A stretch of DNA of 39,240 bases, from positions 1 through 39,240 of IMG/VR virus record IMGVR_UViG_2634166457_000020. The stretch is one strand, 5' to 3'. Of the stretch, positions 4,925-37,436 are shown one piece after another. A model generated the notes under the pieces. The model made no database searches. It was not told the DNA's origin and saw nothing but the letters and a program-made list of their open reading frames with translations. Source of the stretch: a virus (Duplodnaviria; Heunggongvirae; Uroviricota; Caudoviricetes). The first letter of the stretch is position 1; each line of letters opens with the position of its first letter. The translations under genes and the position numbers were made by a program.

Positions 4925-5824
4925 TTACTTCATTCTGAAGACGCGTTGTGTCGTTGTTGTTTTGAATTTTTCGAATAACTCAGGGTGTACTGACTGGAAT
5001 AGCTTCTGGTCGAATCTGTTGCTGATCTGAGATTTCCATGTGCAGAGCGGCTTTCCGTCCAGGGTCAGGACTGAGTGCTCTTGCATGTACATCTTCAGCT
5101 TCTCTTCTGATATAGCTATTTCTTCTTCCAGTGATTTTCTGCGTGACTTCATGTCTCGTAGATCGTTGAATAGTGCGAGTGCCTTTCCGTCAGCCTCGAT
5201 ACTTGTCCCGGCCTCTTTCTCAAACATCAGCGATACATCGCTTACGCTGGTAGCTTCCGGCGGGTTAAGATTTTTCACTCGGTCCCAGAAAGCGATTTCT
5301 TTTTCTAAGATCGCCTGGATAGTTTCTTCATCACGCTCAACCCGATAGATTCGGAAGTCGTCGCCACCGATAAGCACACCGAAAACGCATACCTGTTTGT
5401 TTGTAACCATCAACCCGTGCATGGCCTGGGCCGTGTAATGCACAGGAATTGCATCTGTCTGGATTTCTCCCCATTCTTTGGCTTTGAACGGACTAACTGT
5501 TTTTATCTCAATGTTCTCGCCTGACGCTGCTTCTGCATCGATCTCAGCTGCAATAAAATCGTAATCACGGTGGATATAGCGGTTTCCGCGATGAACGATT
5601 TCCATCCCTGTTTCCTCAGAAAGCAGGTCTATTACGTATGGCTCCATACGCTGGCCACGCGTGAAAACTTTCTGCTTGCTTGGGTCTACTGGTTTGACAC
5701 GTGGCTGGACCTTATCCAGATAAACCTCAAGCGGGGTGCGCCATGGGCTAATTCCAAGAATCCCTGCAACATCGCTTCCTCCGATGTATTTTGTTCTATC
5801 CATGATTCCAGCGTTCCGCATCAT
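4925..5824 (-). CDS. YqaJ-like (lambda-exonuclease-like, PD-(D/E)XK) recombination exonuclease, 299 aa
   Basis: N-terminal RTKYIGGSDVAGILGISPWRTPLEVY matches the YqaJ viral recombinase exonuclease pattern; start ATG (5824..5822) overlaps the upstream gene stop (5823..5821) as ATGA. Confidence 0.75.
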   Translation of the reverse strand: MMRNAGIMDRTKYIGGSDVAGILGISPWRTPLEVYLDKVQPRVKPVDPSKQKVFTRGQRMEPYVIDLLSEETGMEIVHRGNRYIHRDYDFIAAEIDAEAASGENIEIKTVSPFKAKEWGEIQTDAIPVHYTAQAMHGLMVTNKQVCVFGVLIGGDDFRIYRVERDEETIQAILEKEIAFWDRVKNLNPPEATSVSDVSLMFEKEAGTSIEADGKALALFNDLRDMKSRRKSLEEEIAISEEKLKMYMQEHSVLTLDGKPLCTWKSQISNRFDQKLFQSVHPELFEKFKTTTTQRVFRMK

Positions 5825-6120
5825 GCCGCGTCCCTCTGCCCATCAAGCTGATCAGCCAGATCCCAGCGGGCGATAATTGCCATTGCCTCGCGCCGGTAGG
5901 CATCCATTAGTTCTTCGAACTCAGGGCTGTCTTTAGCGGCCTCCAGTACTTCCTGGCGAACGCCTTTAACTGTTACAACGTCGAAAGTTGATGCCAGTTG
6001 ATGAAGCCGGATACTCTCAATCAGTTCAACTTGTCGGTCATATAGCTGTTCTGACAGGCGGTAGTCCTTGTCGAATGCCAGCATGATTTTTTGAAGATTT
6101 TTCTGCTGATTAACGTTCAT
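5821..6120 (-). CDS. Hypothetical early protein (about 99 aa, start MNVNQQ)
   Basis: ORF in the leftward early operon; start chosen at second Met because the upstream small ORF stop lies at 6123-6125. Confidence 0.45.
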   Translation of the reverse strand: MNVNQQKNLQKIMLAFDKDYRLSEQLYDRQVELIESIRLHQLASTFDVVTVKGVRQEVLEAAKDSPEFEELMDAYRREAMAIIARWDLADQLDGQRDAA

Positions 6121-6122
6121 TA

Positions 6123-6275
6123 TCAGCCCTCCCATATCTCGTTATCGTTGGCCACATCGCGAGCTTCTTTGCTGACGAAAGCCCACTTAATGCCTTCCTG
6201 TAAGGTGCGGAACTTCCAGCTCATGAATCCGCATGCAGTAACGCAGTACCAACCGTTGATGATTTTCCACTGCAT
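6123..6275 (-). CDS. Small W/C-rich protein (50 aa, MQWKIINGWYCVTACGF...), first gene of leftward early operon; not in the supplied ORF track
   Basis: Manually translated from the minus strand; GAGG Shine-Dalgarno about 10 nt upstream; directly downstream of operator cluster 6282-6371. Confidence 0.4.
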   Translation of the reverse strand: MQWKIINGWYCVTACGFMSWKFRTLQEGIKWAFVSKEARDVANDNEIWEG

Positions 6276-6281
6276 AACTTG

Positions 6282-6371
6282 TTACCTCGGTCTGTTACCG
6301 TTGAGGTAATAATTATGCGTATCTGGTTTGGTGTCAATAGATATGAGTTAAAAAAATTACCCATTAGGTAA
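6282..6371. promoter_or_regulatory. Leftward operator/promoter cluster (OL-like): TTACC-GTTGA-GGTAA (6295-6309), TTACC-CATTA-GGTAA (6357-6371), extra TTACC half-site 6282-6286
   Basis: Perfect 15-bp inverted repeats between the repressor terminator and the first leftward gene. Confidence 0.6.
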
Positions 6372-6383
6372 TCGAATAGGCAA

Positions 6384-6406
6384 TAAAAAAGCCGCCAGAA
6401 GGCGGC
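6384..6406 (-). terminator. Rho-independent terminator downstream of repressor gene (GCCGCC-AGAA-GGCGGC plus U-tract on minus strand)
   Basis: 6-bp GC stem 6391-6406 preceded on plus strand by A-run 6384-6390. Confidence 0.6.
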
Positions 6407-6428
6407 TTACTTACTGAAAAATATGATT

Positions 6429-7013
6429 TTATTGTTTGTTTTTTTCGTTCTGGTTGATGACAAATTCAATGTAACTTTCGATCTTTGCTTTCTCGGTTTC
6501 GGGTAACAATGCGTAGCGCGAGCGATCATAGTTGATGGTCGCAGGGTCGTGCGGGTGAATCAGTAATTCATAGCCGTGACGCCCGAATGCGGATGCAACA
6601 TTCTCCAGGGTGGAAATGGAAACGCTGACCTCATTGTTTAACAGGCGGCTGATTGTCACCTGGGCGACGCCGGATGCGCGGTGAAGTTTTCCCTGAGTTG
6701 AAAGGTCGCGGCTTTCGCTCATCCAGCGTTCCAGGTTGTGAGCCGCCAGCTGACCAATGTCGCTTGGGCCGACAGGCTGAAAACCTTCCTGAGAAAGCGA
6801 GCGATCGATATCAAGCCAGTTACGGGGTTTATTGGCGGCAGCTTCAATTTTTCGCGCAACCTGGTCGCCGATAACCTTCTTGCCAAGAGCCCAGCGGTTT
6901 ACCAGATTTGCCTGAGTTCCAAGTTTTTCTGCCATCCGCGTCTGAACACCATTGAATTCACGGTCGATCAAGTCGTTGAGATTTTGCCTGCGGACGTCCT
7001 GGATACTTTTCAT
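6429..7013 (-). CDS. Phage repressor-like protein with two tandem XRE-type helix-turn-helix domains, 194 aa; no S24 peptidase domain
   Basis: HTH 1 TRMAEKLGTQANLVNRWALGKK; HTH 2 KLHRASGVAQVTISRLLNNEVSVSISTLENVASAFG; located between two operator clusters and divergent from a Cro-like gene. Confidence 0.65.
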   Translation of the reverse strand: MKSIQDVRRQNLNDLIDREFNGVQTRMAEKLGTQANLVNRWALGKKVIGDQVARKIEAAANKPRNWLDIDRSLSQEGFQPVGPSDIGQLAAHNLERWMSESRDLSTQGKLHRASGVAQVTISRLLNNEVSVSISTLENVASAFGRHGYELLIHPHDPATINYDRSRYALLPETEKAKIESYIEFVINQNEKNKQ

Positions 7014-7068
7014 TTTCTGGAAAATCGCCTCATATATGAATCAGTAGATGATTCAATTTAAAGCAATA

Positions 7069-7131
7069 TTACCCAACAGGTAAATGCACCCCATAGGTAA
7101 CTATCCTTGATTTTTGTTACCTTATGGGTGA
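7069..7131. promoter_or_regulatory. Rightward operator/promoter cluster (OR-like), three sites: TTACC-CAACA-GGTAA (7069-7083), GCACC-CCATA-GGTAA (7086-7100), TTACC-TTATG-GGTGA (7117-7131)
   Basis: Three adjacent 15-bp palindromic sites in the 154-bp divergent region between repressor start (7013) and Cro-like start (7168); candidate -35 TTGATT at 7105-7110. Confidence 0.65.
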
Positions 7132-7167
7132 ATATTTATTATCTGAAATAAATATCAGGCAATAGCT

Positions 7168-7398
7168 ATGAGCGATAACGGACATTTCGATTTCAAAAAG
7201 CACTGGCTTGCACTTACTCCGGATGAGCGTGAAGCCTTCGCACAGGAAGCCGGAACGACGAGTCACTATATCCAGACTCACTTAACAGGTAAGCGCAAAA
7301 TGCCAGGTAAGGTATTGATGAATGGGCTTTTTAAAGCCTGTAAAACAAGACAATGGCTGCGCTCAAAAGCAGAACTGGCATACTTCTTCTACTCATGA
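7168..7398 (+). CDS. Cro-like small DNA-binding regulator (YdaS-like), 76 aa
   Basis: Small protein divergent from the repressor with an HTH-like segment (EREAFAQEAGTTSHYIQTHLTGKRK). Confidence 0.55.
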   Translation: MSDNGHFDFKKHWLALTPDEREAFAQEAGTTSHYIQTHLTGKRKMPGKVLMNGLFKACKTRQWLRSKAELAYFFYS

Positions 7399-7420
7399 TA
7401 TCCAGCCACAACCCTCTGTA

Positions 7421-7442
7421 GACCGCCATCCGGCGGTCTTTT
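7421..7442 (+). terminator. Rho-independent terminator after Cro-like gene (GACCGCC-ATCC-GGCGGTC plus TTTT)
   Basis: 7-bp GC-rich stem followed by T-run. Confidence 0.6.
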
Positions 7443-7512
7443 CATATCTATTCGCACCTTAAAGGTAATAAAAAACCAAATCTGGTTGATCTTTTTTTTG
7501 TGTCAGCACAAA

Positions 7513-7749
7513 ATGACCGTAATCCCAATACTAATAACAGGGCTTACCATGGAAATCATTACACGTATTGATGCCGCAAAGCGCGGACTTAAACGCTACT
7601 ACACCGGAAAACCATGTAAGCACGGACATGACAGTGAACGCTGGGTTTACAACGGACACTGTGTTGAGTGCACCATGGAATCAAACCGTCGTATCAGGGC
7701 AGAGATTAAGCAGATCATGATTAATTCCTCCCCACAACATTCAAGCTGA
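7513..7749 (+). CDS. Small Cys/His-rich (zinc-finger-like) protein at the cII position; start uncertain (7486 TTG, 7513 ATG or 7549 ATG)
   Basis: Motif CKHGHDSERWVYNGHCVEC; preceded by a GCACC-TTAAA-GGTAA site at 7454-7468. Confidence 0.4.
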   Translation: MTVIPILITGLTMEIITRIDAAKRGLKRYYTGKPCKHGHDSERWVYNGHCVECTMESNRRIRAEIKQIMINSSPQHSS

Positions 7750-7764
7750 TAGCGGAGATTAATC

Positions 7765-8580
7765 ATGAGCAGACATGCAACAGATTGGGCCTGGGAGACA
7801 GATCCAGGTAGCTCGTCATTAAAGCTCATACTGCTCTCGATGGCTGACAGAGCCGATGAATATAACCTCTGCTACCCCAGCATAGAACGCCTCGTTAAAG
7901 ACACTTGCCTGAATAAAAAAACCGTGCAGGCCGGACTTATATCGCTCATGAAAATGGGGCTTATTTCAGATACCGGAGAGAGAAAGGGGGCGACGAAAAG
8001 AGTGCGGGTTTTCTCTCTTAATATAACCAAAAAAGGGAACATTAAAGGCAACCTGGAAGGGTGTAATGAACCCGAAAACGGTAATGTTCCCGAAAACGGG
8101 AATATACCCAAAAACGGGATGTTGAATGATCCCAAAAACGGGATGTTGAATGATCCCAAAAACGGGATCCAGAACCAGTCATATAACCAGTCATTTAACC
8201 AAGAGAGGGAGAGCAGGACAAAAAGCGGGGATTCTGTGCCTCATGACCCCGGCGCAAACAACGCCGTGATGAATAACTTTGTTCCTCCTGGTGGGCCAGG
8301 GCAATTAGGCAAATTTGTCATGCATGAACAATGGCAACCATCAGATGACTTTCTTCGGAAAAGCTCATTGCAGGGGATCTACCTGGACAGTCTGCCAACG
8401 GCACAGGAACTTGCAGAGTTCAGAATTTACTGGATGGCTGAGGGTAAGGCATACCATCAGGCACAGTGGGAGCAGAAGCTGGCAAGGAGGCTGCAGATTA
8501 GCAGACAGAAGCAATCAACATTACCTGATAACAACGTTCCGCACTGGAACAGCCCTGAAGCATGGGAGGATTTCTTGTGA
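7765..8580 (+). CDS. Replication initiator, lambda O-like, 271 aa, with repetitive NG-rich linker
   Basis: N-terminal winged-helix-like region, internal repetitive linker encoded by iterons, position immediately upstream of a lambda P homologue. Confidence 0.65.
   Translation: MSRHATDWAWETDPGSSSLKLILLSMADRADEYNLCYPSIERLVKDTCLNKKTVQAGLISLMKMGLISDTGERKGATKRVRVFSLNITKKGNIKGNLEGCNEPENGNVPENGNIPKNGMLNDPKNGMLNDPKNGIQNQSYNQSFNQERESRTKSGDSVPHDPGANNAVMNNFVPPGGPGQLGKFVMHEQWQPSDDFLRKSSLQGIYLDSLPTAQELAEFRIYWMAEGKAYHQAQWEQKLARRLQISRQKQSTLPDNNVPHWNSPEAWEDFL
8071..8196. repeat. Five direct iterons CCC(G/A)AAAACGG(G) at 8071, 8089, 8107, 8131, 8155 plus two AACCAGTCAT repeats; candidate origin of replication inside the O-like gene
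   Basis: Direct repeats at 18-24 bp spacing, including an exact 24-bp tandem duplication (8107-8130 / 8131-8154), followed by a moderately AT-rich segment. Confidence 0.55.
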
Positions 8581-9362: not shown

Positions 9363-9479
9363 TACCAGCGCGATAGCGCATTTTTTTACGTCTACATAAT
9401 TACCTGTTAGGTAATAAAATGTTCTAAAATCTATTGATTTCGTGTCTTATGTGGTTTTTAATTACCTCAGGGGTAAATC

Positions 9480-9824
9480 ATGAGAAAACAGATGCAGGCT
9501 CTTGGTCGACTCAAAACAGGACAGATGAACAAAACAGAATCTGCGTATTGCCAGCACCTTGAGCAGCGTAAACGTGCAGGGGAAATCGCCTGGTATCGAT
9601 TCGAGGGTATCAAGCTGCGGTTAGCTGATAACACGTTCTATACGCCCGATTTTGCTGTGATGCTCGCCACCGGCGAGATGGAACTGCACGAAGTGAAAGG
9701 TTTCTGGACCGACGACGCCAGGGTGAAAACCAAAGTCGCCGCAGATCAGTATCCGTTCCGAATCATCGGGGTAACGGTTAAACCAAAGAAAGCAGGTGGT
9801 GGCTGGAACATCGAAGAGTTCTGA
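9480..9824 (+). CDS. Hypothetical phage protein, possibly PD-(D/E)XK nuclease-like (DUF1064-like), 114 aa
   Basis: Motifs TPDF ... ELHEVKG suggest a D-(E)xK active site arrangement; low certainty. Confidence 0.45.
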   Translation: MRKQMQALGRLKTGQMNKTESAYCQHLEQRKRAGEIAWYRFEGIKLRLADNTFYTPDFAVMLATGEMELHEVKGFWTDDARVKTKVAADQYPFRIIGVTVKPKKAGGGWNIEEF

Positions 9825-13037: not shown

Positions 13038-13063
13038 GCCGCCAACTATGGCGGCTTTATTTT
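13038..13063 (+). terminator. Rho-independent terminator upstream of terminase genes (GCCGCC-AACTAT-GGCGGC plus TTTATTTT)
   Basis: 6-bp GC stem followed by T-rich tract. Confidence 0.6.
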
Positions 13064-13097
13064 GCATGGTACTATTACCACAACGGTAACTATTACC

Positions 13098-13703
13098 ATG
13101 GTGGTTATGATGCCTGCTGAACCTAAAACCTATAAACGCAAATCAACGCAATTTAAGCCACTAACAGCAATGCAGGAGGCTTATTGCCAGTCATACATCA
13201 AAACGCCTGAAAACCAGACTCAGGCTGCGATTAACGCAGGATTCTCCCCAAATACAGCGGCAGTTAAAGCCAGTGTCATGATGCGCGATGAACGCATTCA
13301 GAAACGGATTGCCGAGTTGATGGAGGAGCGCAACAAACGAATGCGCGTCAGTGCTGATTACGTTCTCATGCGCCTGGTGGAGATCGACCAGATGGACGTG
13401 ATCGACATCCTCAACGACGATGGGAGCCTTAAACCAATCCGTGAGTGGCCGAAAATCTGGCGCACTACGCTTAGTGGCTTTGATCTGTCGTCGACCATCA
13501 TGAACATGAACGAGGATTCGATAGAGACAATCCTCAAAAAAATTAAATGGCCTGACAAGGTGAAGAACCTTGAGCTGATTGGTAAGCATGTTGATGTCAA
13601 CGCGTTCAAAGAACGTCTGGATGTTAATGTGAATGTGACAATTGCTGATCGCATAGCAGCAGCCAGGAAGCGACTCAAAGAACGTCAGGATGGTAATCAG
13701 TGA
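13098..13703 (+). CDS. Terminase small subunit, about 201 aa; start uncertain (13098, 13107 or 13110)
   Basis: Sequence YCQSYIKTPENQTQAAINAGFSPNTAAVKASVMMRDERIQKRIAEL resembles the HTH-type terminase small subunit family; stop overlaps the large subunit start (GTGA). Confidence 0.7.
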   Translation: MVVMMPAEPKTYKRKSTQFKPLTAMQEAYCQSYIKTPENQTQAAINAGFSPNTAAVKASVMMRDERIQKRIAELMEERNKRMRVSADYVLMRLVEIDQMDVIDILNDDGSLKPIREWPKIWRTTLSGFDLSSTIMNMNEDSIETILKKIKWPDKVKNLELIGKHVDVNAFKERLDVNVNVTIADRIAAARKRLKERQDGNQ

Positions 13704-15175
13704 CAGATACAGCGTTATCTCCTGAAGAGCAGTTGATCGAGGATATTGCAGGGTTCACTCACGATCCGCTTGGCTATGCCCTCTATGCGTTCCCGTGGGG
13801 GGAAGAAGGGACTGAACTGGCACATGCTACCGGCCCACGTCAGTGGCAGGCTGATGCGTTCCGAGAGATACGTGATCACCTGCAGAATCCAGCGACGCGC
13901 TATCAGCCGCTTATGCTGGCACGCGCTTCTGGTCACGGTATTGGTAAATCCGCATTCATCTCAATGCTGATCAACTGGGGCATGTCCACTTGCGAGGATT
14001 GTAAGGTCGTGGTGACCGCCAACACCGACAACCAGCTACGAACGAAGACCTGGCCGGAAATTATCAAGTGGTCGAACCTTGCTATCACGAAAGACTGGTT
14101 TACCTGTACCGCTACCGCGATGTACAGCAATGATCCTGGGCACGACAAGCGGTGGCGAGCTGACGCAATCCCCTGGTCTGAGCACAACACTGAGGCATTC
14201 GCCGGACTACACAACGAGCGCAAACGCATCATCGTGGTATTCGATGAAGCGTCGAACATTGCGGATCTGGTGTGGGAAGTTGCTGAGGGTGCGCTTACGG
14301 ACGAAGACACTGAGATTATCTGGGTGGCGTTCGGAAACCCTACACGTAACACCGGGCGTTTCCGCGAATGTTTCCGCAAATATAAACACCGCTGGAAAAC
14401 TGCGCAGATTGACAGCCGGACGGTGGAAGGCACTAACAAACAGCAGTTGCAGAAATGGGTTGATGACTACGGGGAAGACAGCGACTTCGTTAAAATCCGT
14501 GTGCGCGGCATATTCCCGGATGCATCTGAATTGCAGTTTATCCCTACCGGACTTACTGACGAGGCAATGAAACGGGTGGTCACCGCTGCGCAGGTTGCAC
14601 ATGCTCCGGTGATAATCGGCGTTGACCCGGCATACTCAGGCGTTGATGACGCTGTGATATACCTGCGGCAGGGGCTGCACAGTAAGGTGCTGTGGACTGG
14701 CAACAAGACCACTGACGATCTGATTATGGCGAAGCGTATCGCTGACTTTGAAGACCAGTACCAGGCTGACGCAGTGTTCATCGACTTCGGTTACGGAACT
14801 GGTCTGAAGTCAATCGGTGACGGCTGGGGTCGTACATGGCAACTTGTTCCGTTCGGTGGCGCGTCTACTGACCCGCAGATGCTCAACAAGCGTGGGGAGA
14901 TGTTCAACTCATGTAAGACATGGCTGAGGCTGGGCGGCATGCTGGATGACCAGGAAACTGCAGACGACCTGTCGGCGGCAGAGTACAAAGTTCGAGTGGA
15001 CGGTAAAATCGTTATCGAACCGAAGGAAGATATCAAAGAGCGACTTGGGCGTTCGCCGGGTAAAGGCGATGCGCTGCTGCTGACGTTTGCTTTCCCGGTG
15101 TCGAAGCGCCTGCGACTTCCCGGGCAGCAGAACCAGCAAGGCAAGGCGCTTACCGAGTACGATCCATATGCTTAG
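13700..15175 (+). CDS. Terminase large subunit, 491 aa
   Basis: Walker A-like LARASGHGIGKSAF, Walker B-like IIVVFDEASNI, C-terminal nuclease-like region; typical size and position. Confidence 0.9.
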   Translation: MTDTALSPEEQLIEDIAGFTHDPLGYALYAFPWGEEGTELAHATGPRQWQADAFREIRDHLQNPATRYQPLMLARASGHGIGKSAFISMLINWGMSTCEDCKVVVTANTDNQLRTKTWPEIIKWSNLAITKDWFTCTATAMYSNDPGHDKRWRADAIPWSEHNTEAFAGLHNERKRIIVVFDEASNIADLVWEVAEGALTDEDTEIIWVAFGNPTRNTGRFRECFRKYKHRWKTAQIDSRTVEGTNKQQLQKWVDDYGEDSDFVKIRVRGIFPDASELQFIPTGLTDEAMKRVVTAAQVAHAPVIIGVDPAYSGVDDAVIYLRQGLHSKVLWTGNKTTDDLIMAKRIADFEDQYQADAVFIDFGYGTGLKSIGDGWGRTWQLVPFGGASTDPQMLNKRGEMFNSCKTWLRLGGMLDDQETADDLSAAEYKVRVDGKIVIEPKEDIKERLGRSPGKGDALLLTFAFPVSKRLRLPGQQNQQGKALTEYDPYA

Positions 15176-15768
15176 TCTTTATTTTTATCCTCGAAACCTG
15201 ATAATCCAGATAGAACACCAAAGTTATTAAAAACGTCTGGCTTACCAGATTTTAATCCGGATAAGTTGTGTTGCTCCAAAAAGTTGCTAATTGTTTGGCC
15301 GTTGCCAAGTGCAAGACTTTTTATTTGAGATTTTTCAGGGTATTTGAGTTTGTATTCGTCGAAATCATTTTGGAGGGTCTTATATGCCTCATTCATTCTT
15401 CCCAGAGTTTCCGATATCTCTTTTAATGAATGATTTAGAGCTGCTAACTGAGCACTGGCGGATCTCAATTCGTCATCTTTAGCTTTCAACTCGGCAGTCA
15501 ATTCCCCCATACTATTCTTTGATCGAATAATCTCTTCTTTCATCTCTTGGATGTCTTTTTCCGCGCCAGTCTTAACTTTGTCGTATGTAACATCTTTTTT
15601 AGCCAATAACCTCTGCAGTCTGGTTTCACGCTGGATTTTTCTTGCCTTCAGGTGATTATCGATTGAGTCATTATTATCAAGAGGCTTTGCTTGCCATACG
15701 TTAATGATATTGTTTACCCATGGTAATAGGCAGCAGATAGCAATTACAGATAAGCATGGATAAAACAT
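15172..15768 (-). CDS. Moron-encoded membrane-anchored coiled-coil protein, 198 aa
   Basis: N-terminal hydrophobic anchor LSVIAICCLLPW then long K/E-rich heptad-like region; AT-rich, antisense to the late operon; stop overlaps terminase stop (TTAG). Confidence 0.55.
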   Translation of the reverse strand: MFYPCLSVIAICCLLPWVNNIINVWQAKPLDNNDSIDNHLKARKIQRETRLQRLLAKKDVTYDKVKTGAEKDIQEMKEEIIRSKNSMGELTAELKAKDDELRSASAQLAALNHSLKEISETLGRMNEAYKTLQNDFDEYKLKYPEKSQIKSLALGNGQTISNFLEQHNLSGLKSGKPDVFNNFGVLSGLSGFEDKNKD

Positions 15769-15777
15769 AACAGTTTT

Positions 15778-15990
15778 TCATGTGCTGTTATCTGAGATAT
15801 ATGAAATTTTATCTATTATGTTTGATTTGCTAAAAAATAGATAAAGAATTGATTTCCAGTTGAAGGCGCACCAGGACATAACAAAAGCACCAAGCACAGG
15901 GTTTTTGGCTCGATTCACGGCAGTATTGGCAGTAGATAAAAACAGCTCTTTGAAGGATTCAAACATGCTAATTACCTTGAAGTTTTTCAT
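15778..15990 (-). CDS. Moron-encoded small membrane protein, about 70 aa
   Basis: Start at MKNFKV (ATG 15990..15988) with AAGG SD; hydrophobic segment PVLGAFVMSWCAFNW; 9 bp upstream of the 198-aa gene. Confidence 0.45.
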   Translation of the reverse strand: MKNFKVISMFESFKELFLSTANTAVNRAKNPVLGAFVMSWCAFNWKSILYLFFSKSNIIDKISYISDNST

Positions 15991-16025
15991 GATTATACCT
16001 TTAAGGTAATTTGCGGTCATCAAGC

Positions 16026-16212: not shown

Positions 16213-16289
16213 TGGCGTGGCATGCAGGATTCGAACCTGCGACCAACCGCTTAGAAGGCGGTTGCTCTGTCCAACTGAGCTAATGCCAC
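16213..16289 (-). tRNA. tRNA-Arg (anticodon UCU, reads AGA), 77 nt including encoded CCA
   Basis: Manually folded cloverleaf: acceptor GUGGCAU/AUGCCAC, D-stem GCUC/GAGC, anticodon stem ACCGC/GCGGU with loop CUUCUAA, T-stem GCAGG/CCUGC with loop UUCGAAU, discriminator G, CCA. Confidence 0.85.
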
Positions 16290-16716
16290 AACGCTGAGAG
16301 CACTTAGCCTGTTAAGGCACCACACTTTGTCGCGGCTCCATAAATGCTCTCATCGTTGTACCCTCGTCTCTTCCGAGGCGTCACACCGAATCGCCGGGAT
16401 GGTGAATCCCCGTGCGCGGAATAAAACCGCTCGACTTGCACATTCCGGCTACCTGGTTCGTTTGCCCGAGCAAGGGAGGGTGCCCCTTAAACGTATCCAG
16501 ACCGCTATCGTCGCATGTGCCATACGCCGTACTGCTCAAAATAAAAGCTCACTCCACCTGTTCAATTTAACGACAAGCCAGTCAGGTTAGTAACCGGAAT
16601 GAACCCTTTAGTTACCTGAAGGGTAATAATTCGCGCGTTAAATGTCAACTGTCTACGATAAATAAATCATATGTGGTTAAATTGGTAATGATTTAATTGC
16701 GTACGGAGTCATTGAT

Positions 16717-19622: not shown

Positions 19623-20609
19623 ATGGCTGTTAAAGGCTTAACTGCGCTAACGCTGGCTGACTGGGGTAAGCGCGTCGATCCAAACGGGAAAGTCGATAAG
19701 ATTATCGAGCTTCTCGGTCAAACTAACCCGATCCTTCAGGATATGCCTTTTGTCGAAGGGAACCTTCCTACCGGACACCGAACCACCATTCGTTCTGGTT
19801 TACCTTCAGCTACCTGGCGTTTGCTGAACTATGGCGTACAGCCAAGCAAATCAACCACAGTGCAGGTGACCGATTCCGTTGGCATGTTGGAAACCTATGC
19901 TGAAGTCGATAAGTCACTGGCTGATCTGAACGGTAATACCGCCGAATTCCGCCTGTCTGAAGACCGTGCATTTATTGAAGCGATGAATCAGCAGATGGCG
20001 CAGACACTGTTTTATGGTGATTCCAGCGTTAACCCTCAGCAGTTTATGGGACTGTCCTCCCGCTATTCCAGCCTGTCTGCGGGTAATGCTCAGAACATCA
20101 TTGATGCTGGTGGCACGGGTACAGATAACACCTCAATCTGGTTAGTGGTGTGGGGCGAAAACACCGTGCATGGCATCTTCCCGAAAGGGCAGAAGGCTGG
20201 CATCCAGATGGAAGATAAAGGCCAGGTGACACTGGAAGATGCTAATGGCGGCAAGTACGAAGGCTACCGTACCCATTACAAATGGGACAACGGACTTGCT
20301 CTGCGTGACTGGCGTTATGTTGTTCGCATTGCAAACATCGATGTCAGCAATCTTTCAGAACCTTCCTCTGCCGCAAATATTGCGAAGTTGATGGTTAAAG
20401 CACTGCATCGCATTCCAAACCGTGGCATGGGTCGCCCGGTGTTCTACATGAACCGCACTGTAGGCCAGGCTCTTGATCTGCAATCTCTGGAGAAAACATC
20501 TCTGGCGATCAGCGTAAAAGAGACAGAAGGCGAGTGGTGGACTTCATTCCGTGGTGTACCAATCCGTGAAACTGATGCGCTTCTGGAAACAGAAGCCCGC
20601 GTGGTGTAA
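19623..20609 (+). CDS. Major capsid protein, about 328 aa
   Basis: Size and position; strong SD AAGAGAGGA with ATG at 19623; followed by a stem-loop. Confidence 0.7.
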   Translation: MAVKGLTALTLADWGKRVDPNGKVDKIIELLGQTNPILQDMPFVEGNLPTGHRTTIRSGLPSATWRLLNYGVQPSKSTTVQVTDSVGMLETYAEVDKSLADLNGNTAEFRLSEDRAFIEAMNQQMAQTLFYGDSSVNPQQFMGLSSRYSSLSAGNAQNIIDAGGTGTDNTSIWLVVWGENTVHGIFPKGQKAGIQMEDKGQVTLEDANGGKYEGYRTHYKWDNGLALRDWRYVVRIANIDVSNLSEPSSAANIAKLMVKALHRIPNRGMGRPVFYMNRTVGQALDLQSLEKTSLAISVKETEGEWWTSFRGVPIRETDALLETEARVV

Positions 20610-32872: not shown

Positions 32873-32897
32873 GGCCGCTTTCGCGGCCTTTAATTTT
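32873..32897 (+). terminator. Rho-independent terminator ending the late structural operon (GGCCGC-TTTC-GCGGCC plus TTTAATTTT)
   Basis: 6-bp GC stem followed by T-rich tract; lies between convergent genes. Confidence 0.65.
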
Positions 32898-33153
32898 ACC
32901 GGATTTGTTTTCGTAATTGTTCGGCACAATAGTCGAGATGCGTTTGCAGATCCCGCATAGACATCTGTGAGTTGGTTACGTAGTTGATCAGTGCAGTCAG
33001 TTCGGCAAGTGGGCCATCGACATTGAATCCATCTTTATCGAGATCCCGGAGTAATTTCATCAAGTGCGATCCCTCCACTAGTGATCTGACGCCTCCAGGT
33101 GTGTGAATCCTTTCGGTAAATCCGTCTTCCAGTGGATAGTGATACTGCTGCAT
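32896..33153 (-). CDS. Hypothetical antisense small protein, about 85 aa (start MQQYHYPLEDGF)
   Basis: Internal Met of ORF 32896..33387 chosen because the upstream part overlaps the tailspike promoter region and the ATG at 33153 has a GGAGAAG SD. Confidence 0.35.
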   Translation of the reverse strand: MQQYHYPLEDGFTERIHTPGGVRSLVEGSHLMKLLRDLDKDGFNVDGPLAELTALINYVTNSQMSMRDLQTHLDYCAEQLRKQIR

Positions 33154-33349
33154 CTTATCTTCTCCATGCAATAACTGTATGAATATACAGTACCAAATAA
33201 TTTGTTTGCTATCCAGCACGTTTTGTAAATCACCTGAAAGGTAATATCTGTTCGTATCGATGATGTTTCTATCCCATATATGGTTTTTAAGGTAATAAAA
33301 TGGCCGGATATGCGGCGCAACGGGTGCTGCGACTATCTGGAGATTTAAC

Positions 33350-37252: not shown

Positions 37253-37436
37253 TTAATCCTTGGCTCATTATCTTTAGTTTAATAAACAAAATTTTATTGA
37301 TGAATTTCGCAAGTGTATCACCCAAAAGGTAATTTTGGTAGGAGTTATTCTGGGTAATTCAAATCATATGTGGTTTATTGTGTATGATATGATCACCAAC
37401 TAAGGGGGTCTTTATGCACGGTAACAGGTGGTTTTT

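What the first reader, a model, noticed from the sequence alone, without database searches (positions are those of the whole stretch)
6282..7131. Repressor gene flanked by two operator clusters built from a 15-bp palindrome TTACC-N5-GGTAA
Seen in sequence: perfect or near-perfect palindromes at 6295-6309 and 6357-6371 (between the repressor terminator and the leftward early operon) and at 7069-7083, 7086-7100 and 7117-7131 (three sites in the divergent repressor/Cro-like region). The arrangement mirrors lambda OL/OR in number, spacing and position, but the half-site (TTACC/GGTAA) and 5-bp spacer are different from lambda operators. This defines the immunity specificity of the phage.
Basis: seen in the sequence. 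Interest (0 to 1): 0.65.

Follow-up and report, generated by a model that had tools for sequence, protein, structure and literature searches.

The report
Repressor operators of a phiV10-like prophage
The palindromes are real and are almost certainly the binding sites of the prophage's repressor, but the same motif sits in front of nearly every operon of the phage and in all its relatives, where it is already annotated, so this is an ordinary member of a known switch.

Summary
TTACC-N5-GGTAA occurs 7 times perfectly in the window, against 0.03 expected.

The finding is incomplete, and its lambda analogy is only partly right.
- **Identity of the window.** It is a phiV10-like Uetakevirus prophage of the epsilon15 family.
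- **Nine more sites outside 6282-7131.** They lie at 7454, 9400, 9462, 13075, 13093, 15995, 16612, 33230 and 37318. All are intergenic and sit at operon starts.
- **Conservation.** The half-sites, their positions and their spacings (62 bp at OL, 17+31 bp at OR) are kept in epsilon15, SPC32H, Tyrion, BUCT711 and six enterobacterial prophages. The repressors of these relatives are only 41-78% identical, but their recognition helix LVNRW is invariant.
- **Prior annotation.** The epsilon15 RefSeq record already marks seven such sites as repressor binding sites.
- **The regulators.** The repressor is a full-length homologue of SPC32H Rep (PDB 5D50). That protein is a tetramer that does not cleave itself and is inactivated by the LexA-controlled antirepressor Ant. 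The Ant gene and its LexA box are present at 32896-33190.

The motif is genus-wide, so it cannot on its own define this phage's immunity specificity. Verdict: a new member of a known kind, of low interest.

The parts
6295..6309 (.). OL proximal operator (perfect TTACC-N5-GGTAA). It abuts or overlaps the -10 of PL and covers the predicted +1.
   Evidence: conserved in 5 phages
6309..6337 (-). Predicted leftward early promoter PL: TTGACA-17-AATTAT. The block CTATTGAC around the -35 is invariant in relatives.
   Evidence: 10/12 match
6357..6371 (.). OL distal operator (perfect), 62 bp centre-to-centre from the proximal one, just downstream of the rep terminator.
   Evidence: spacing of 62-63 bp kept in eps15, SPC32H, Tyrion and BUCT711
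6389..6408 (-). Rho-independent terminator of the repressor gene.
   Evidence: the same feature is annotated in phiV10
6429..7013 (-). Repressor (Rep), 194 aa: N-terminal HTH DNA-binding domain, an HTH_3-like middle domain, a C-terminal tetramerisation region and no S24 peptidase.
   Evidence: (5D50_A, E 4e-42, residues 1-190)
7069..7083 (.). OR site nearest rep (perfect).
7086..7100 (.). OR middle site (GCACC...GGTAA, 2 mismatches), 17 bp from the previous site.
   Evidence: position conserved; perfect in eps15, SPC32H and BUCT711
7117..7131 (.). OR site inside the PR core promoter (1 mismatch), 31 bp from the middle site.
7108..7142 (+). Predicted rightward early promoter PR. The scan gives TTGTTA-17-TATTAT at 7114-7142. 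The invariant TTGATTTTT at 7108-7116 is an alternative -35.
7168..7398 (+). Cro-like 76-aa HTH protein (phrog_35, 'transcriptional repressor'). Its HTH AGTTSHYIQ is invariant in relatives.
7454..7468 (.). Operator-like site (GCACC...GGTAA) after the terminator of the cro-like gene (7420-7439) and upstream of the replication-gene block.
   Evidence: the same position (-455 from the rep ATG) in SPC32H, Tyrion and BUCT711, and perfect in L080
9400..9414 (.). Distal operator of the promoter of the DUF1064 operon (perfect).
9434..9462 (+). Predicted promoter TTGATT-17-TTTAAT, with the same geometry as PL.
   Evidence: read (cTATTGA and the -10 conserved); not in the scan list
9462..9476 (.). Proximal operator (perfect), 62 bp from 9400. 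It covers the +1 and the ribosome-binding site of the gene starting at 9480.
13075..13089 (.). Operator (perfect) between terminator 13038-13055 and the small terminase gene.
   Evidence: eps15 12-27 is annotated as a repressor site
13093..13107 (.). Second operator (1 mismatch), 18 bp from the first, overlapping the terS ribosome-binding site and start codon.
   Evidence: the same 18-bp pair in eps15 and Tyrion
15995..16009 (.). Operator-like site (1 mismatch) inside a minus-strand promoter (ATGACC-17-TATAAT) of a split accessory gene.
   Evidence: conservation in distant relatives not checked
16612..16626 (.). Operator (perfect) upstream of the structural-gene operon. A conserved GGTAA half-site lies 62 bp downstream, at 16684-16688.
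   Evidence: eps15 2931-2947 is annotated as a repressor site
32896..33153 (-). Antirepressor Ant, 85 aa.
   Evidence: 5D50_E, E 1.6e-45
33175..33190 (.). LexA box CTGTATGAATATACAG in the ant promoter region.
   Evidence: conserved in eps15 and Tyrion
33230..33244 (.). Operator (1 mismatch) between ant and the tailspike gene (ATG 33350).
   Evidence: eps15 19895-19911 is annotated as a repressor site
37318..37332 (.). Operator (1 mismatch) upstream of the lysis cassette.
   Evidence: syntenic sites at eps15 24704 and Tyrion 26408

Best explanation
The 15-17-bp palindromes (consensus aTTACCt-N3-aGGTAAt) are the operators of the prophage repressor Rep (6429-7013, minus strand). Rep is a member of the SPC32H/epsilon15 Rep family.

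In the lysogen, Rep is inferred to bind them through its N-terminal HTH. By homology it does so as a tetramer carrying two pairs of DNA-binding domains.
- **PL and the promoter at 9434-9462.** A proximal operator covers the -10/+1 region and a distal operator lies 62 bp upstream. One tetramer could hold both and close the promoter.
- **PR.** One operator lies between the -35 and the -10, and two more lie upstream, next to the rep gene. There they probably also set rep's own expression.
- **Other operons.** Single or paired operators stand in front of the replication, terminase, structural, tailspike and lysis operons. Rep therefore appears to silence each transcription unit directly, not only the two early promoters.

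Induction is not by repressor self-cleavage. DNA damage removes LexA from the box at 33175-33190, Ant (32896-33153) is made, and Ant strips Rep from the DNA.

What is shown here: the motif, its significance, its positions, its conservation, and the homologies. What is inferred: actual binding, the promoter start points, looping, and direct repression of the late operons.
For: **Motif statistics.** There are 7 perfect matches against 0.03 expected, and 12 with at most 1 mismatch against 0.71 expected. All 14 accepted sites are intergenic. ACC is invariant in 28 of 28 half-sites.

**Promoter overlap.** The proximal OL site overlaps PL and the 7117 site overlaps PR. The promoter at 9434-9462 has the same geometry as PL.

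**Phylogenetic footprints.** In five phages the half-sites are invariant while the centres and flanks vary, and the spacings are kept.

**Co-occurrence with the Rep family.** All 10 full-length Rep homologues examined keep the helix LVNRW at 41-78% identity and carry the motif at the same offsets. Six loci whose repressors share only a diverged N-terminal domain, with other recognition helices, have no perfect match.

**Prior annotation.** The epsilon15 RefSeq record annotates 'protein_bind: repressor' on seven of these sites, including late-region ones.

**Homology to solved structures.** Rep matches PDB 5D50 chain A over its full length (E 4e-42) and Ant matches chain E (E 1.6e-45). SPC32H Rep is described as binding palindromic DNA sites as a tetramer and being released by Ant (PMC9638917, PMC9986798).

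**Experiment on an identical repressor.** In phage ZX5, overexpression of the identical repressor abolished free phage and reduced holin and endolysin transcripts by 99.97% and 99.99%.

**LexA box.** The box next to ant is perfect and is conserved in eps15 and Tyrion.
Against: There are no binding data for this phage.

The two primary SPC32H papers (PMC3807360, PMC4983836) and the epsilon15 genome paper (PMC2698709) are not held in the library. I could therefore not confirm that the experimentally used operator is this exact sequence.

The Cro-like gene co-occurs with rep in all five phage genomes where I checked it, and its HTH is equally conserved. Comparative data alone cannot say which of the two proteins, or both, binds the sites.

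Promoters are consensus matches only, and such matches are no more frequent here than in shuffles.

At the structural, tailspike and lysis operons the operator lies about 47-59 bp upstream of the candidate -10. That is not a classical occluding position, so direct repression there needs a partner site or looping that has not been demonstrated.
Confidence: 0.8

Rival explanations
1. The palindromes are primarily the binding sites of the Cro-like 76-aa HTH protein (7168-7398), or of another phage regulator, and Rep recognises a different sequence.
For: The Cro-like protein has a strictly conserved HTH (AGTTSHYIQ.HLT) in all five phages. It matches phrog_35, 'transcriptional repressor'. Its gene co-occurs with the motif exactly as rep does. 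In lambda, Cro and CI share operators.
Against: The epsilon15 curators assigned the sites to the repressor. SPC32H Rep is reported to bind palindromic sites as a tetramer, and paired sites suit a protein with two pairs of DNA-binding domains. No other repeated palindrome was noticed in the immunity region that could serve Rep; this was not searched for systematically. Shared use by both proteins is compatible with the main explanation.
Confidence: 0.1
2. Only the immunity-region sites (6295-7131) are functional operators, as the first reader proposed in a lambda-like OL/OR scheme. The sites elsewhere in the genome are non-functional or serve some other purpose, and late genes are controlled indirectly through a cascade.
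For: The late-region sites are upstream of the putative promoters rather than over them. A second conserved element (CATATGTGGTTwwwT) at the late operons suggests a separate late-promoter logic. The phage encodes other putative regulators: PerC-like and AlpA-like proteins and an N15 gp46-like protein are annotated in its relatives.
Against: The out-of-region sites are conserved in sequence and position across phages whose surrounding DNA has diverged. The pair at 9400/9462 reproduces the PL geometry exactly, including the 62-bp spacing. All sites are intergenic. Several are annotated as repressor sites in epsilon15.
Confidence: 0.08
3. The palindromes are chance or compositional features with no function.
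For: Two-mismatch matches are also in excess inside genes (24 against about 11 expected). This probably reflects codon bias and shows that weak matches are unreliable.
Against: There are 7 perfect matches against 0.03 expected and no shuffle reaches that count. All accepted sites are intergenic, and position and spacing are conserved across genera.
Confidence: 0.01

Closest known systems
Rep/Ant lytic switch of Salmonella phage SPC32H (Uetakevirus; PDB 5D4Z and 5D50; Kim & Ryu 2013, Kim et al. 2016)
   Same: Rep is a full-length homologue (E 4e-42, about 42% identity) and Ant is a close homologue (E 1.6e-45). The gene order is the same. The TTACC-N5-GGTAA sites sit at the same offsets from rep. 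There is a LexA box beside ant. There is no S24 domain.
   Different: The host differs (E. coli). Rep is diverged outside the DNA-binding domain. OL has two sites here and three in SPC32H and eps15. Nothing has been tested experimentally for this phage's operators.
Repressor binding sites annotated in Salmonella phage epsilon15 (NC_004775.2)
   Same: The 17-bp motif ATTACC-N5-GGTAAT is the same. The positions are syntenic: before terS, before the structural operon, before the tailspike gene, at OL, and before the gene after the replication block.
   Different: The epsilon15 record does not mark the three OR sites, the pre-lysis site or the proximal partner sites, although the motif is present there. 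The window has an extra site at 15995 in an accessory region that epsilon15 lacks.
Lambda OL/OR with CI and Cro
   Same: The repressor and Cro-like genes are divergent, with three sites between them. A second operator cluster controls the leftward early operon. The operators overlap the core promoters.
   Different: The repressor fold and oligomeric state differ (tetramer, no RecA-stimulated self-cleavage). Induction is by an antirepressor. The half-site is different. OL is a 62-bp-spaced pair bracketing the promoter. Operators also lie at operons outside the immunity region.
Antirepressor-controlled prophages (P22 Ant; Gifsy/Fels-2 LexA-controlled antirepressors; 186 Tum)
   Same: The SOS signal is relayed through a LexA-repressed small antirepressor rather than through repressor cleavage (own knowledge; one search lists antirepressors for Fels-2 and the Gifsy prophages).
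   Different: The proteins are unrelated. SPC32H-type Ant binds the C-terminal domain of Rep rather than competing for the DNA-binding surface (own knowledge of Kim et al. 2016; not verifiable here).
Tetrameric looping repressor Rco of plasmid pLS20
   Same: It has an N-terminal HTH and a C-terminal tetramerisation domain of the same fold as SPC32H Rep, is controlled by an antirepressor, and binds separated sites cooperatively.
   Different: It is a plasmid conjugation regulator. It has no middle dimerisation domain, and its operators and loop size are different.

Membership tests
SPC32H-type Rep/Ant switch (Uetakevirus) | Rep homologue with an N-terminal HTH, a middle dimerisation domain and a C-terminal tetramerisation/Ant-binding domain | tested here: met
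   phmmer to 5D50_A, E 4e-42, residues 1-190 of 194 aligned. The domain description is in PMC9986798.
SPC32H-type Rep/Ant switch (Uetakevirus) | The repressor lacks a LexA/CI-type S24 self-cleavage domain | tested here: met
   Pfam finds only HTH families and no Peptidase_S24.
SPC32H-type Rep/Ant switch (Uetakevirus) | Small Ant antirepressor homologue encoded next to the tailspike gene | tested here: met
   32896-33153(-), 85 aa; 5D50_E E 1.6e-45.
SPC32H-type Rep/Ant switch (Uetakevirus) | LexA box at the ant promoter | tested here: met
   CTGTATGAATATACAG at 33175-33190, 22 bp upstream of the ant start codon, conserved in eps15 and Tyrion. LexA binding itself was not tested.
SPC32H-type Rep/Ant switch (Uetakevirus) | Rep binds palindromic operators as a tetramer and is released by Ant | not testable with these tools
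   Reported for SPC32H (summarised). It needs EMSA or footprinting for this phage.
epsilon15-type repressor operator set | The ATTACC-N5-GGTAAT motif, significantly over-represented | tested here: met
   eps15 and Tyrion each have 15 matches with at most 1 mismatch, against about 0.6 expected.
epsilon15-type repressor operator set | Sites at syntenic intergenic positions (OL, pre-terS, pre-structural, pre-tailspike, after the replication genes) | tested here: met
   The annotated eps15 features coincide with the motif hits and align with the window sites.
Lambda-type immunity region (CI/Cro, tripartite OL and OR) | Three adjacent operators at both OL and OR, about 20-24 bp centre-to-centre | tested here: not met
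   OR has three sites at 17 and 31 bp. OL has two sites 62 bp apart. The lambda spacing is from own knowledge.
Lambda-type immunity region (CI/Cro, tripartite OL and OR) | CI-type repressor with an S24 domain, cleaved on RecA activation | tested here: not met
Lambda-type immunity region (CI/Cro, tripartite OL and OR) | Operators confined to the immunity region | tested here: not met
   Nine further conserved sites lie between 7454 and 37332.

The most novel reading that the evidence does not exclude
One tetrameric repressor directly gates every transcription unit of the phage: 14 sites in nine intergenic regions. A fixed 62-bp operator pair wraps or micro-loops the promoters it shuts.

Because so many sites would have to co-evolve, the operator specificity has been frozen. 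Uetakeviruses of E. coli, Salmonella, Klebsiella, Enterobacter and Citrobacter share the half-site and the recognition helix despite about 41% repressor identity. They would then be mutually immune across host genera. That is the opposite of the diversifying immunity seen in lambdoid phages.
Probability: 0.3. Interest if true: 0.45.

Novelty: new member of a known kind. Interest (0 to 1): 0.2.

Why it matters
This immunity module is common. It is present at 95% identity or more in 537 of 5,426 complete E. coli genomes, and an identical repressor is found in at least 80 IMG/VR viral contigs.

A correct operator map tells which prophage genes are silent in lysogens, including the O-antigen-modifying and accessory genes. 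It explains SOS induction through Ant rather than through repressor cleavage. It also predicts that related phages of different hosts may exclude one another. Beyond that, the finding extends to phiV10-like phages what is already annotated for epsilon15 and studied structurally for SPC32H.

Tried and rejected
1. **Primary literature.** I tried to read Kim & Ryu 2013 (PMC3807360), Kim et al. 2016 (PMC4983836 and its DOI) and Kropinski et al. 2007 (PMC2698709). None is held. The experimentally used operator sequence could therefore not be checked, and only secondary descriptions were available.
2. **Literature searches.** Searches for operators of phiV10 and Uetakevirus phages gave only the ZX5 paper, which defines no operator.
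3. **Covariation test.** I looked for relatives with a changed recognition helix and a changed palindrome at the same positions. The IMG/VR scan returned only identical repressors. The species-level genome scan gave six full-length homologues, all with the same helix and motif. It also gave five that are similar only in the N-terminal domain, from unrelated elements, with no comparable palindromes. The Pseudomonas phage PseuP_224 repressor was likewise uninformative. The result is conservation and co-occurrence, not true covariation.
4. **The rep promoter.** I could not find a convincing sigma70 promoter for rep between 7014 and 7068. Only weak candidates exist, so I make no claim about one.
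5. **Two-mismatch matches inside genes.** I considered them as extra operators and rejected them. They are not positionally conserved and probably reflect codon bias.
6. **Script analysis of whole genomes.** The eps15 and Tyrion genome loci did not appear in the script sandbox. Comparisons were made with the search and alignment tools instead.
Full report
**1. What the window is**

The region 5800-7800 is 98-99% identical to Escherichia phages PAS61, phiV10, phiv142-3, ZX5 and O157 typing phages 9 and 10. The first 25 kb matches the same phages. These are Uetakeviruses, the epsilon15 family of temperate podophages.

The window starts at the integrase start codon and ends at the stop codon of the Rz-like spanin gene. 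It therefore looks like a prophage cut without its attachment region.

**2. The observation**

- 6295, 6357 and 7069 are perfect TTACC-N5-GGTAA.
- 7117 has one mismatch (GGTGA).
- 7086 has two mismatches (GCACC).

The motif is hugely over-represented. There are 7 perfect copies against 0.03 expected, and 12 with at most one mismatch against 0.71 expected.

The flanking features also check out:
- a 194-aa repressor ORF at 6429-7013 on the minus strand;
- its terminator at 6408-6389;
- a divergent 76-aa gene at 7168-7398.

**3.

The same motif occurs well outside 6282-7131.

| Site(s) | Quality | Context |
|---|---|---|
| 7454-7468 | 2 mismatches, the same GCACC variant as 7086 | after the terminator of the cro-like gene |
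| 9400 and 9462 | both perfect, 62 bp apart | before the DUF1064 operon |
| 13075 and 13093 | perfect and 1 mismatch, 18 bp apart | between a terminator and the small terminase gene |
| 15995 | 1 mismatch | inside a minus-strand promoter with a perfect TATAAT |
| 16612 | perfect | before the structural operon |
| 33230 | 1 mismatch | between ant and the tailspike gene |
| 37318 | 1 mismatch | before the lysis cassette |

All 14 sites lie in the roughly 5.5% of the window that I count as intergenic. Symmetrising the 28 half-sites gives a-T-T-A-C-C-t, with ACC invariant. The full element is thus the 17-bp ATTACC-N5-GGTAAT.

**4. Geometry at the promoters**

- **PL.** The promoter scan finds PL on the minus strand as TTGACA-17-AATTAT at 6337-6309. 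The proximal operator begins at the last base of the -10 and is centred on the predicted +1. The distal operator is centred 62 bp upstream.
- **The promoter at 9434-9462.** The same arrangement, base for base, recurs at TTGATT-17-TTTAAT with operators at 9462 and 9400. There the proximal operator even contains the ribosome-binding site of the gene starting at 9480.
- **PR.** This is TTGTTA-17-TATTAT at 7114-7142, or uses the invariant TTGATT at 7108. The 7117 operator lies between the -35 and the -10, and two more sites lie 31 and 48 bp further upstream, towards rep.
- **The rep promoter.** I could not identify a convincing one in 7014-7068.
- **Structural, tailspike and lysis operons.** The operator sits 47-59 bp upstream of a conserved element CATATGTGGTTwwwT, which reads as an extended -10 (TGn + TTwwwT). 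How a site in that position would repress is not shown. At 16612 a conserved GGTAA half-site lies exactly 62 bp downstream, which hints at the same two-point contact.

These promoter assignments are consensus matches only. Such matches are not enriched over shuffles.

**5. Comparative evidence**

Epsilon15 and Enterobacter phage Tyrion each carry 15 matches with at most one mismatch, against about 0.6 expected, at the same relative positions. Those positions are:
- a pair 18 bp apart before terS;
- one site before the structural operon;
- one site before the tailspike gene;
- one site before the lysis genes;
- one site before int, which falls outside this window;
- a 62-bp pair at OL;
- three sites at OR (17 + 30/31 bp);
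- one site after the cro-like terminator in Tyrion only (in eps15 no match with at most one mismatch was found there);
- a 62-bp pair after the replication genes.

SPC32H and Klebsiella phage BUCT711 show the same sites around rep. Alignments of six intergenic regions show classical footprints: the half-sites are invariant while the central five bases and the flanks change.

Ten full-length repressor homologues are 41-78% identical to the window's protein. All keep the helix LVNRW, and all have the motif at about -70 and about +640 to +720 from the rep start codon. They include prophages of Superficieibacter, Erwinia, Klebsiella, Citrobacter and Scandinavium.

Six loci have repressors that resemble only the N-terminal domain and carry other recognition helices. 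None of them has a perfect copy of the motif. This is co-occurrence, not covariation, and the Cro-like protein is conserved in parallel. Sequence comparison alone cannot decide which regulator binds.

**6. Link to known work**

The epsilon15 RefSeq record already carries seven 'protein_bind: repressor' features. They coincide with motif hits at 12, 2931, 19895, 32479, 32554, 32616 and 35906. So the motif and its spread into the late regions were recognised by that genome's curators. The phiV10 record marks only terminators here, and the ZX5 paper defines no operator.

The window's repressor aligns over its full length with SPC32H Rep (PDB 5D50 chain A, E 4e-42). The 85-aa ORF at 32896-33153 aligns with SPC32H Ant (5D50 chain E, E 1.6e-45).

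Secondary sources describe SPC32H Rep as follows:
- it has an N-terminal DNA-binding domain, a middle dimerisation domain and a C-terminal tetramerisation domain;
- it binds palindromic sites as a tetramer whose DNA-binding pairs come from different dimers;
- it is released by tetrameric Ant.

From my own knowledge of Kim & Ryu 2013, ant is repressed by LexA. Consistent with that, a perfect LexA box (CTGTATGAATATACAG, 33175-33190) lies just upstream of ant and is conserved in epsilon15 and Tyrion.

Pfam finds no S24 peptidase domain in the repressor.

In phage ZX5, whose repressor is 100% identical, overexpression of the repressor removed all free phage and cut holin and endolysin mRNA by 99.97% and 99.99%. 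That result fits repression reaching the lysis operon. It does not prove that the repression is direct.

**7. Most likely mechanism**

Rep occupies the palindromes in the lysogen. Pairs of sites suit a tetramer with two DNA-binding units. These pairs are 62 bp apart around PL and the 9434 promoter, 18 bp apart at terS, and 17 and 31 bp apart at OR. The fixed 62-bp spacing, about six helical turns, suggests that one tetramer bridges both sites and traps the promoter.

On DNA damage LexA leaves the ant promoter, Ant accumulates and removes Rep, and all Rep-gated operons open.

I give this 0.8. The weakest steps are direct repression at the late operons and the looping geometry.

**8.

The assignment as repressor operators is well supported. 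The lambda comparison holds only loosely: divergent regulator genes and three OR sites. It fails on OL number and spacing, on repressor type and induction route, and on confinement to the immunity region.

The statement that the motif defines this phage's immunity specificity is not supported, because the half-site and the recognition helix are shared across the genus. Whether the variable centre or the flanks add specificity is untested.

**9. Novelty and interest**

This is a new member of a known kind. It has the same regulators, the same motif and the same layout as epsilon15 and SPC32H, in a closely related and very common E. coli prophage (537 of 5,426 complete genomes).

Two points are mildly interesting. 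The operator set is genome-wide, and its specificity appears frozen across host genera, which predicts cross-immunity. Interest: 0.2.

Noticed in passing
window 9447-9456, 16669-16678, 33276-33285, 37366-37375: A second conserved element, (c)ATATGTGGTTwwwT, lies downstream of the Rep sites in front of the DUF1064, structural, tailspike and lysis operons. It is nearly invariant in epsilon15 and Tyrion. It reads as an extended -10 (TGn + TTwwwT) without a clear -35. It may be a middle/late promoter class or the target of a phage activator.
   Followed up: partly
window 16674-16688: TGGTTAAATTGGTAA carries only the right half-site GGTAA. It lies exactly 62 bp downstream of the perfect operator at 16612 and is conserved without indels in epsilon15 and Tyrion. 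It may be a weak partner site that reproduces the 62-bp geometry of PL.
   Followed up: partly
window 15172-15768 and 15778-15966 (minus strand): Two adjacent ORFs match consecutive parts of one PHROG family (phrog_4780, profile positions 1-62 and 67-267 of 275). This accessory gene of unknown function appears to be split by a stop codon, or is a pseudogene. Its promoter (ATGACC-17-TATAAT) contains the operator-like site at 15995.
   Followed up: partly
window 16213-16289 (minus strand) and 16290-16600: There is a tRNA-Arg(TCT) gene. The roughly 300 bp next to it have no convincing ORF and no Rfam match, and lie between the accessory gene and the structural operon.
   Followed up: partly
window 1 and 39240: The window begins exactly at the integrase start codon and ends at the stop codon of the Rz-like spanin gene. 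The attP/attL-attR region is therefore absent. So is the operator-like site that precedes int in epsilon15 (26882) and Tyrion (28568).
   Followed up: no
loci L014, L027, L032, L037, L059, L063 (IMG/VR relatives), OL region: Among 80 viral contigs with an identical repressor, a few have the OL sites shifted by 1 bp. In L014, L032 and L063 this changes the OL spacing to 63, 61 and 63 bp. Two contigs (L011, L053) lack a perfect proximal site. The shifts may come from length variation in the A-run next to the distal site, but this was not checked.
   Followed up: no
window 7765-8580, especially 8115-8160: The replication-initiation (DnaT-like) gene contains tandem peptide repeats (PKNGMLND x2 and related units). 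These show up as duplicated terminator-like hits on the minus strand.
   Followed up: no
window, coding regions genome-wide: Matches to the motif with exactly two mismatches are about twice as frequent as in dinucleotide shuffles (24 against about 11). Most lie inside genes and are not positionally conserved. The excess is probably codon-usage bias (GGT-AAn, nTT-ACC) rather than weak operators.
   Followed up: no
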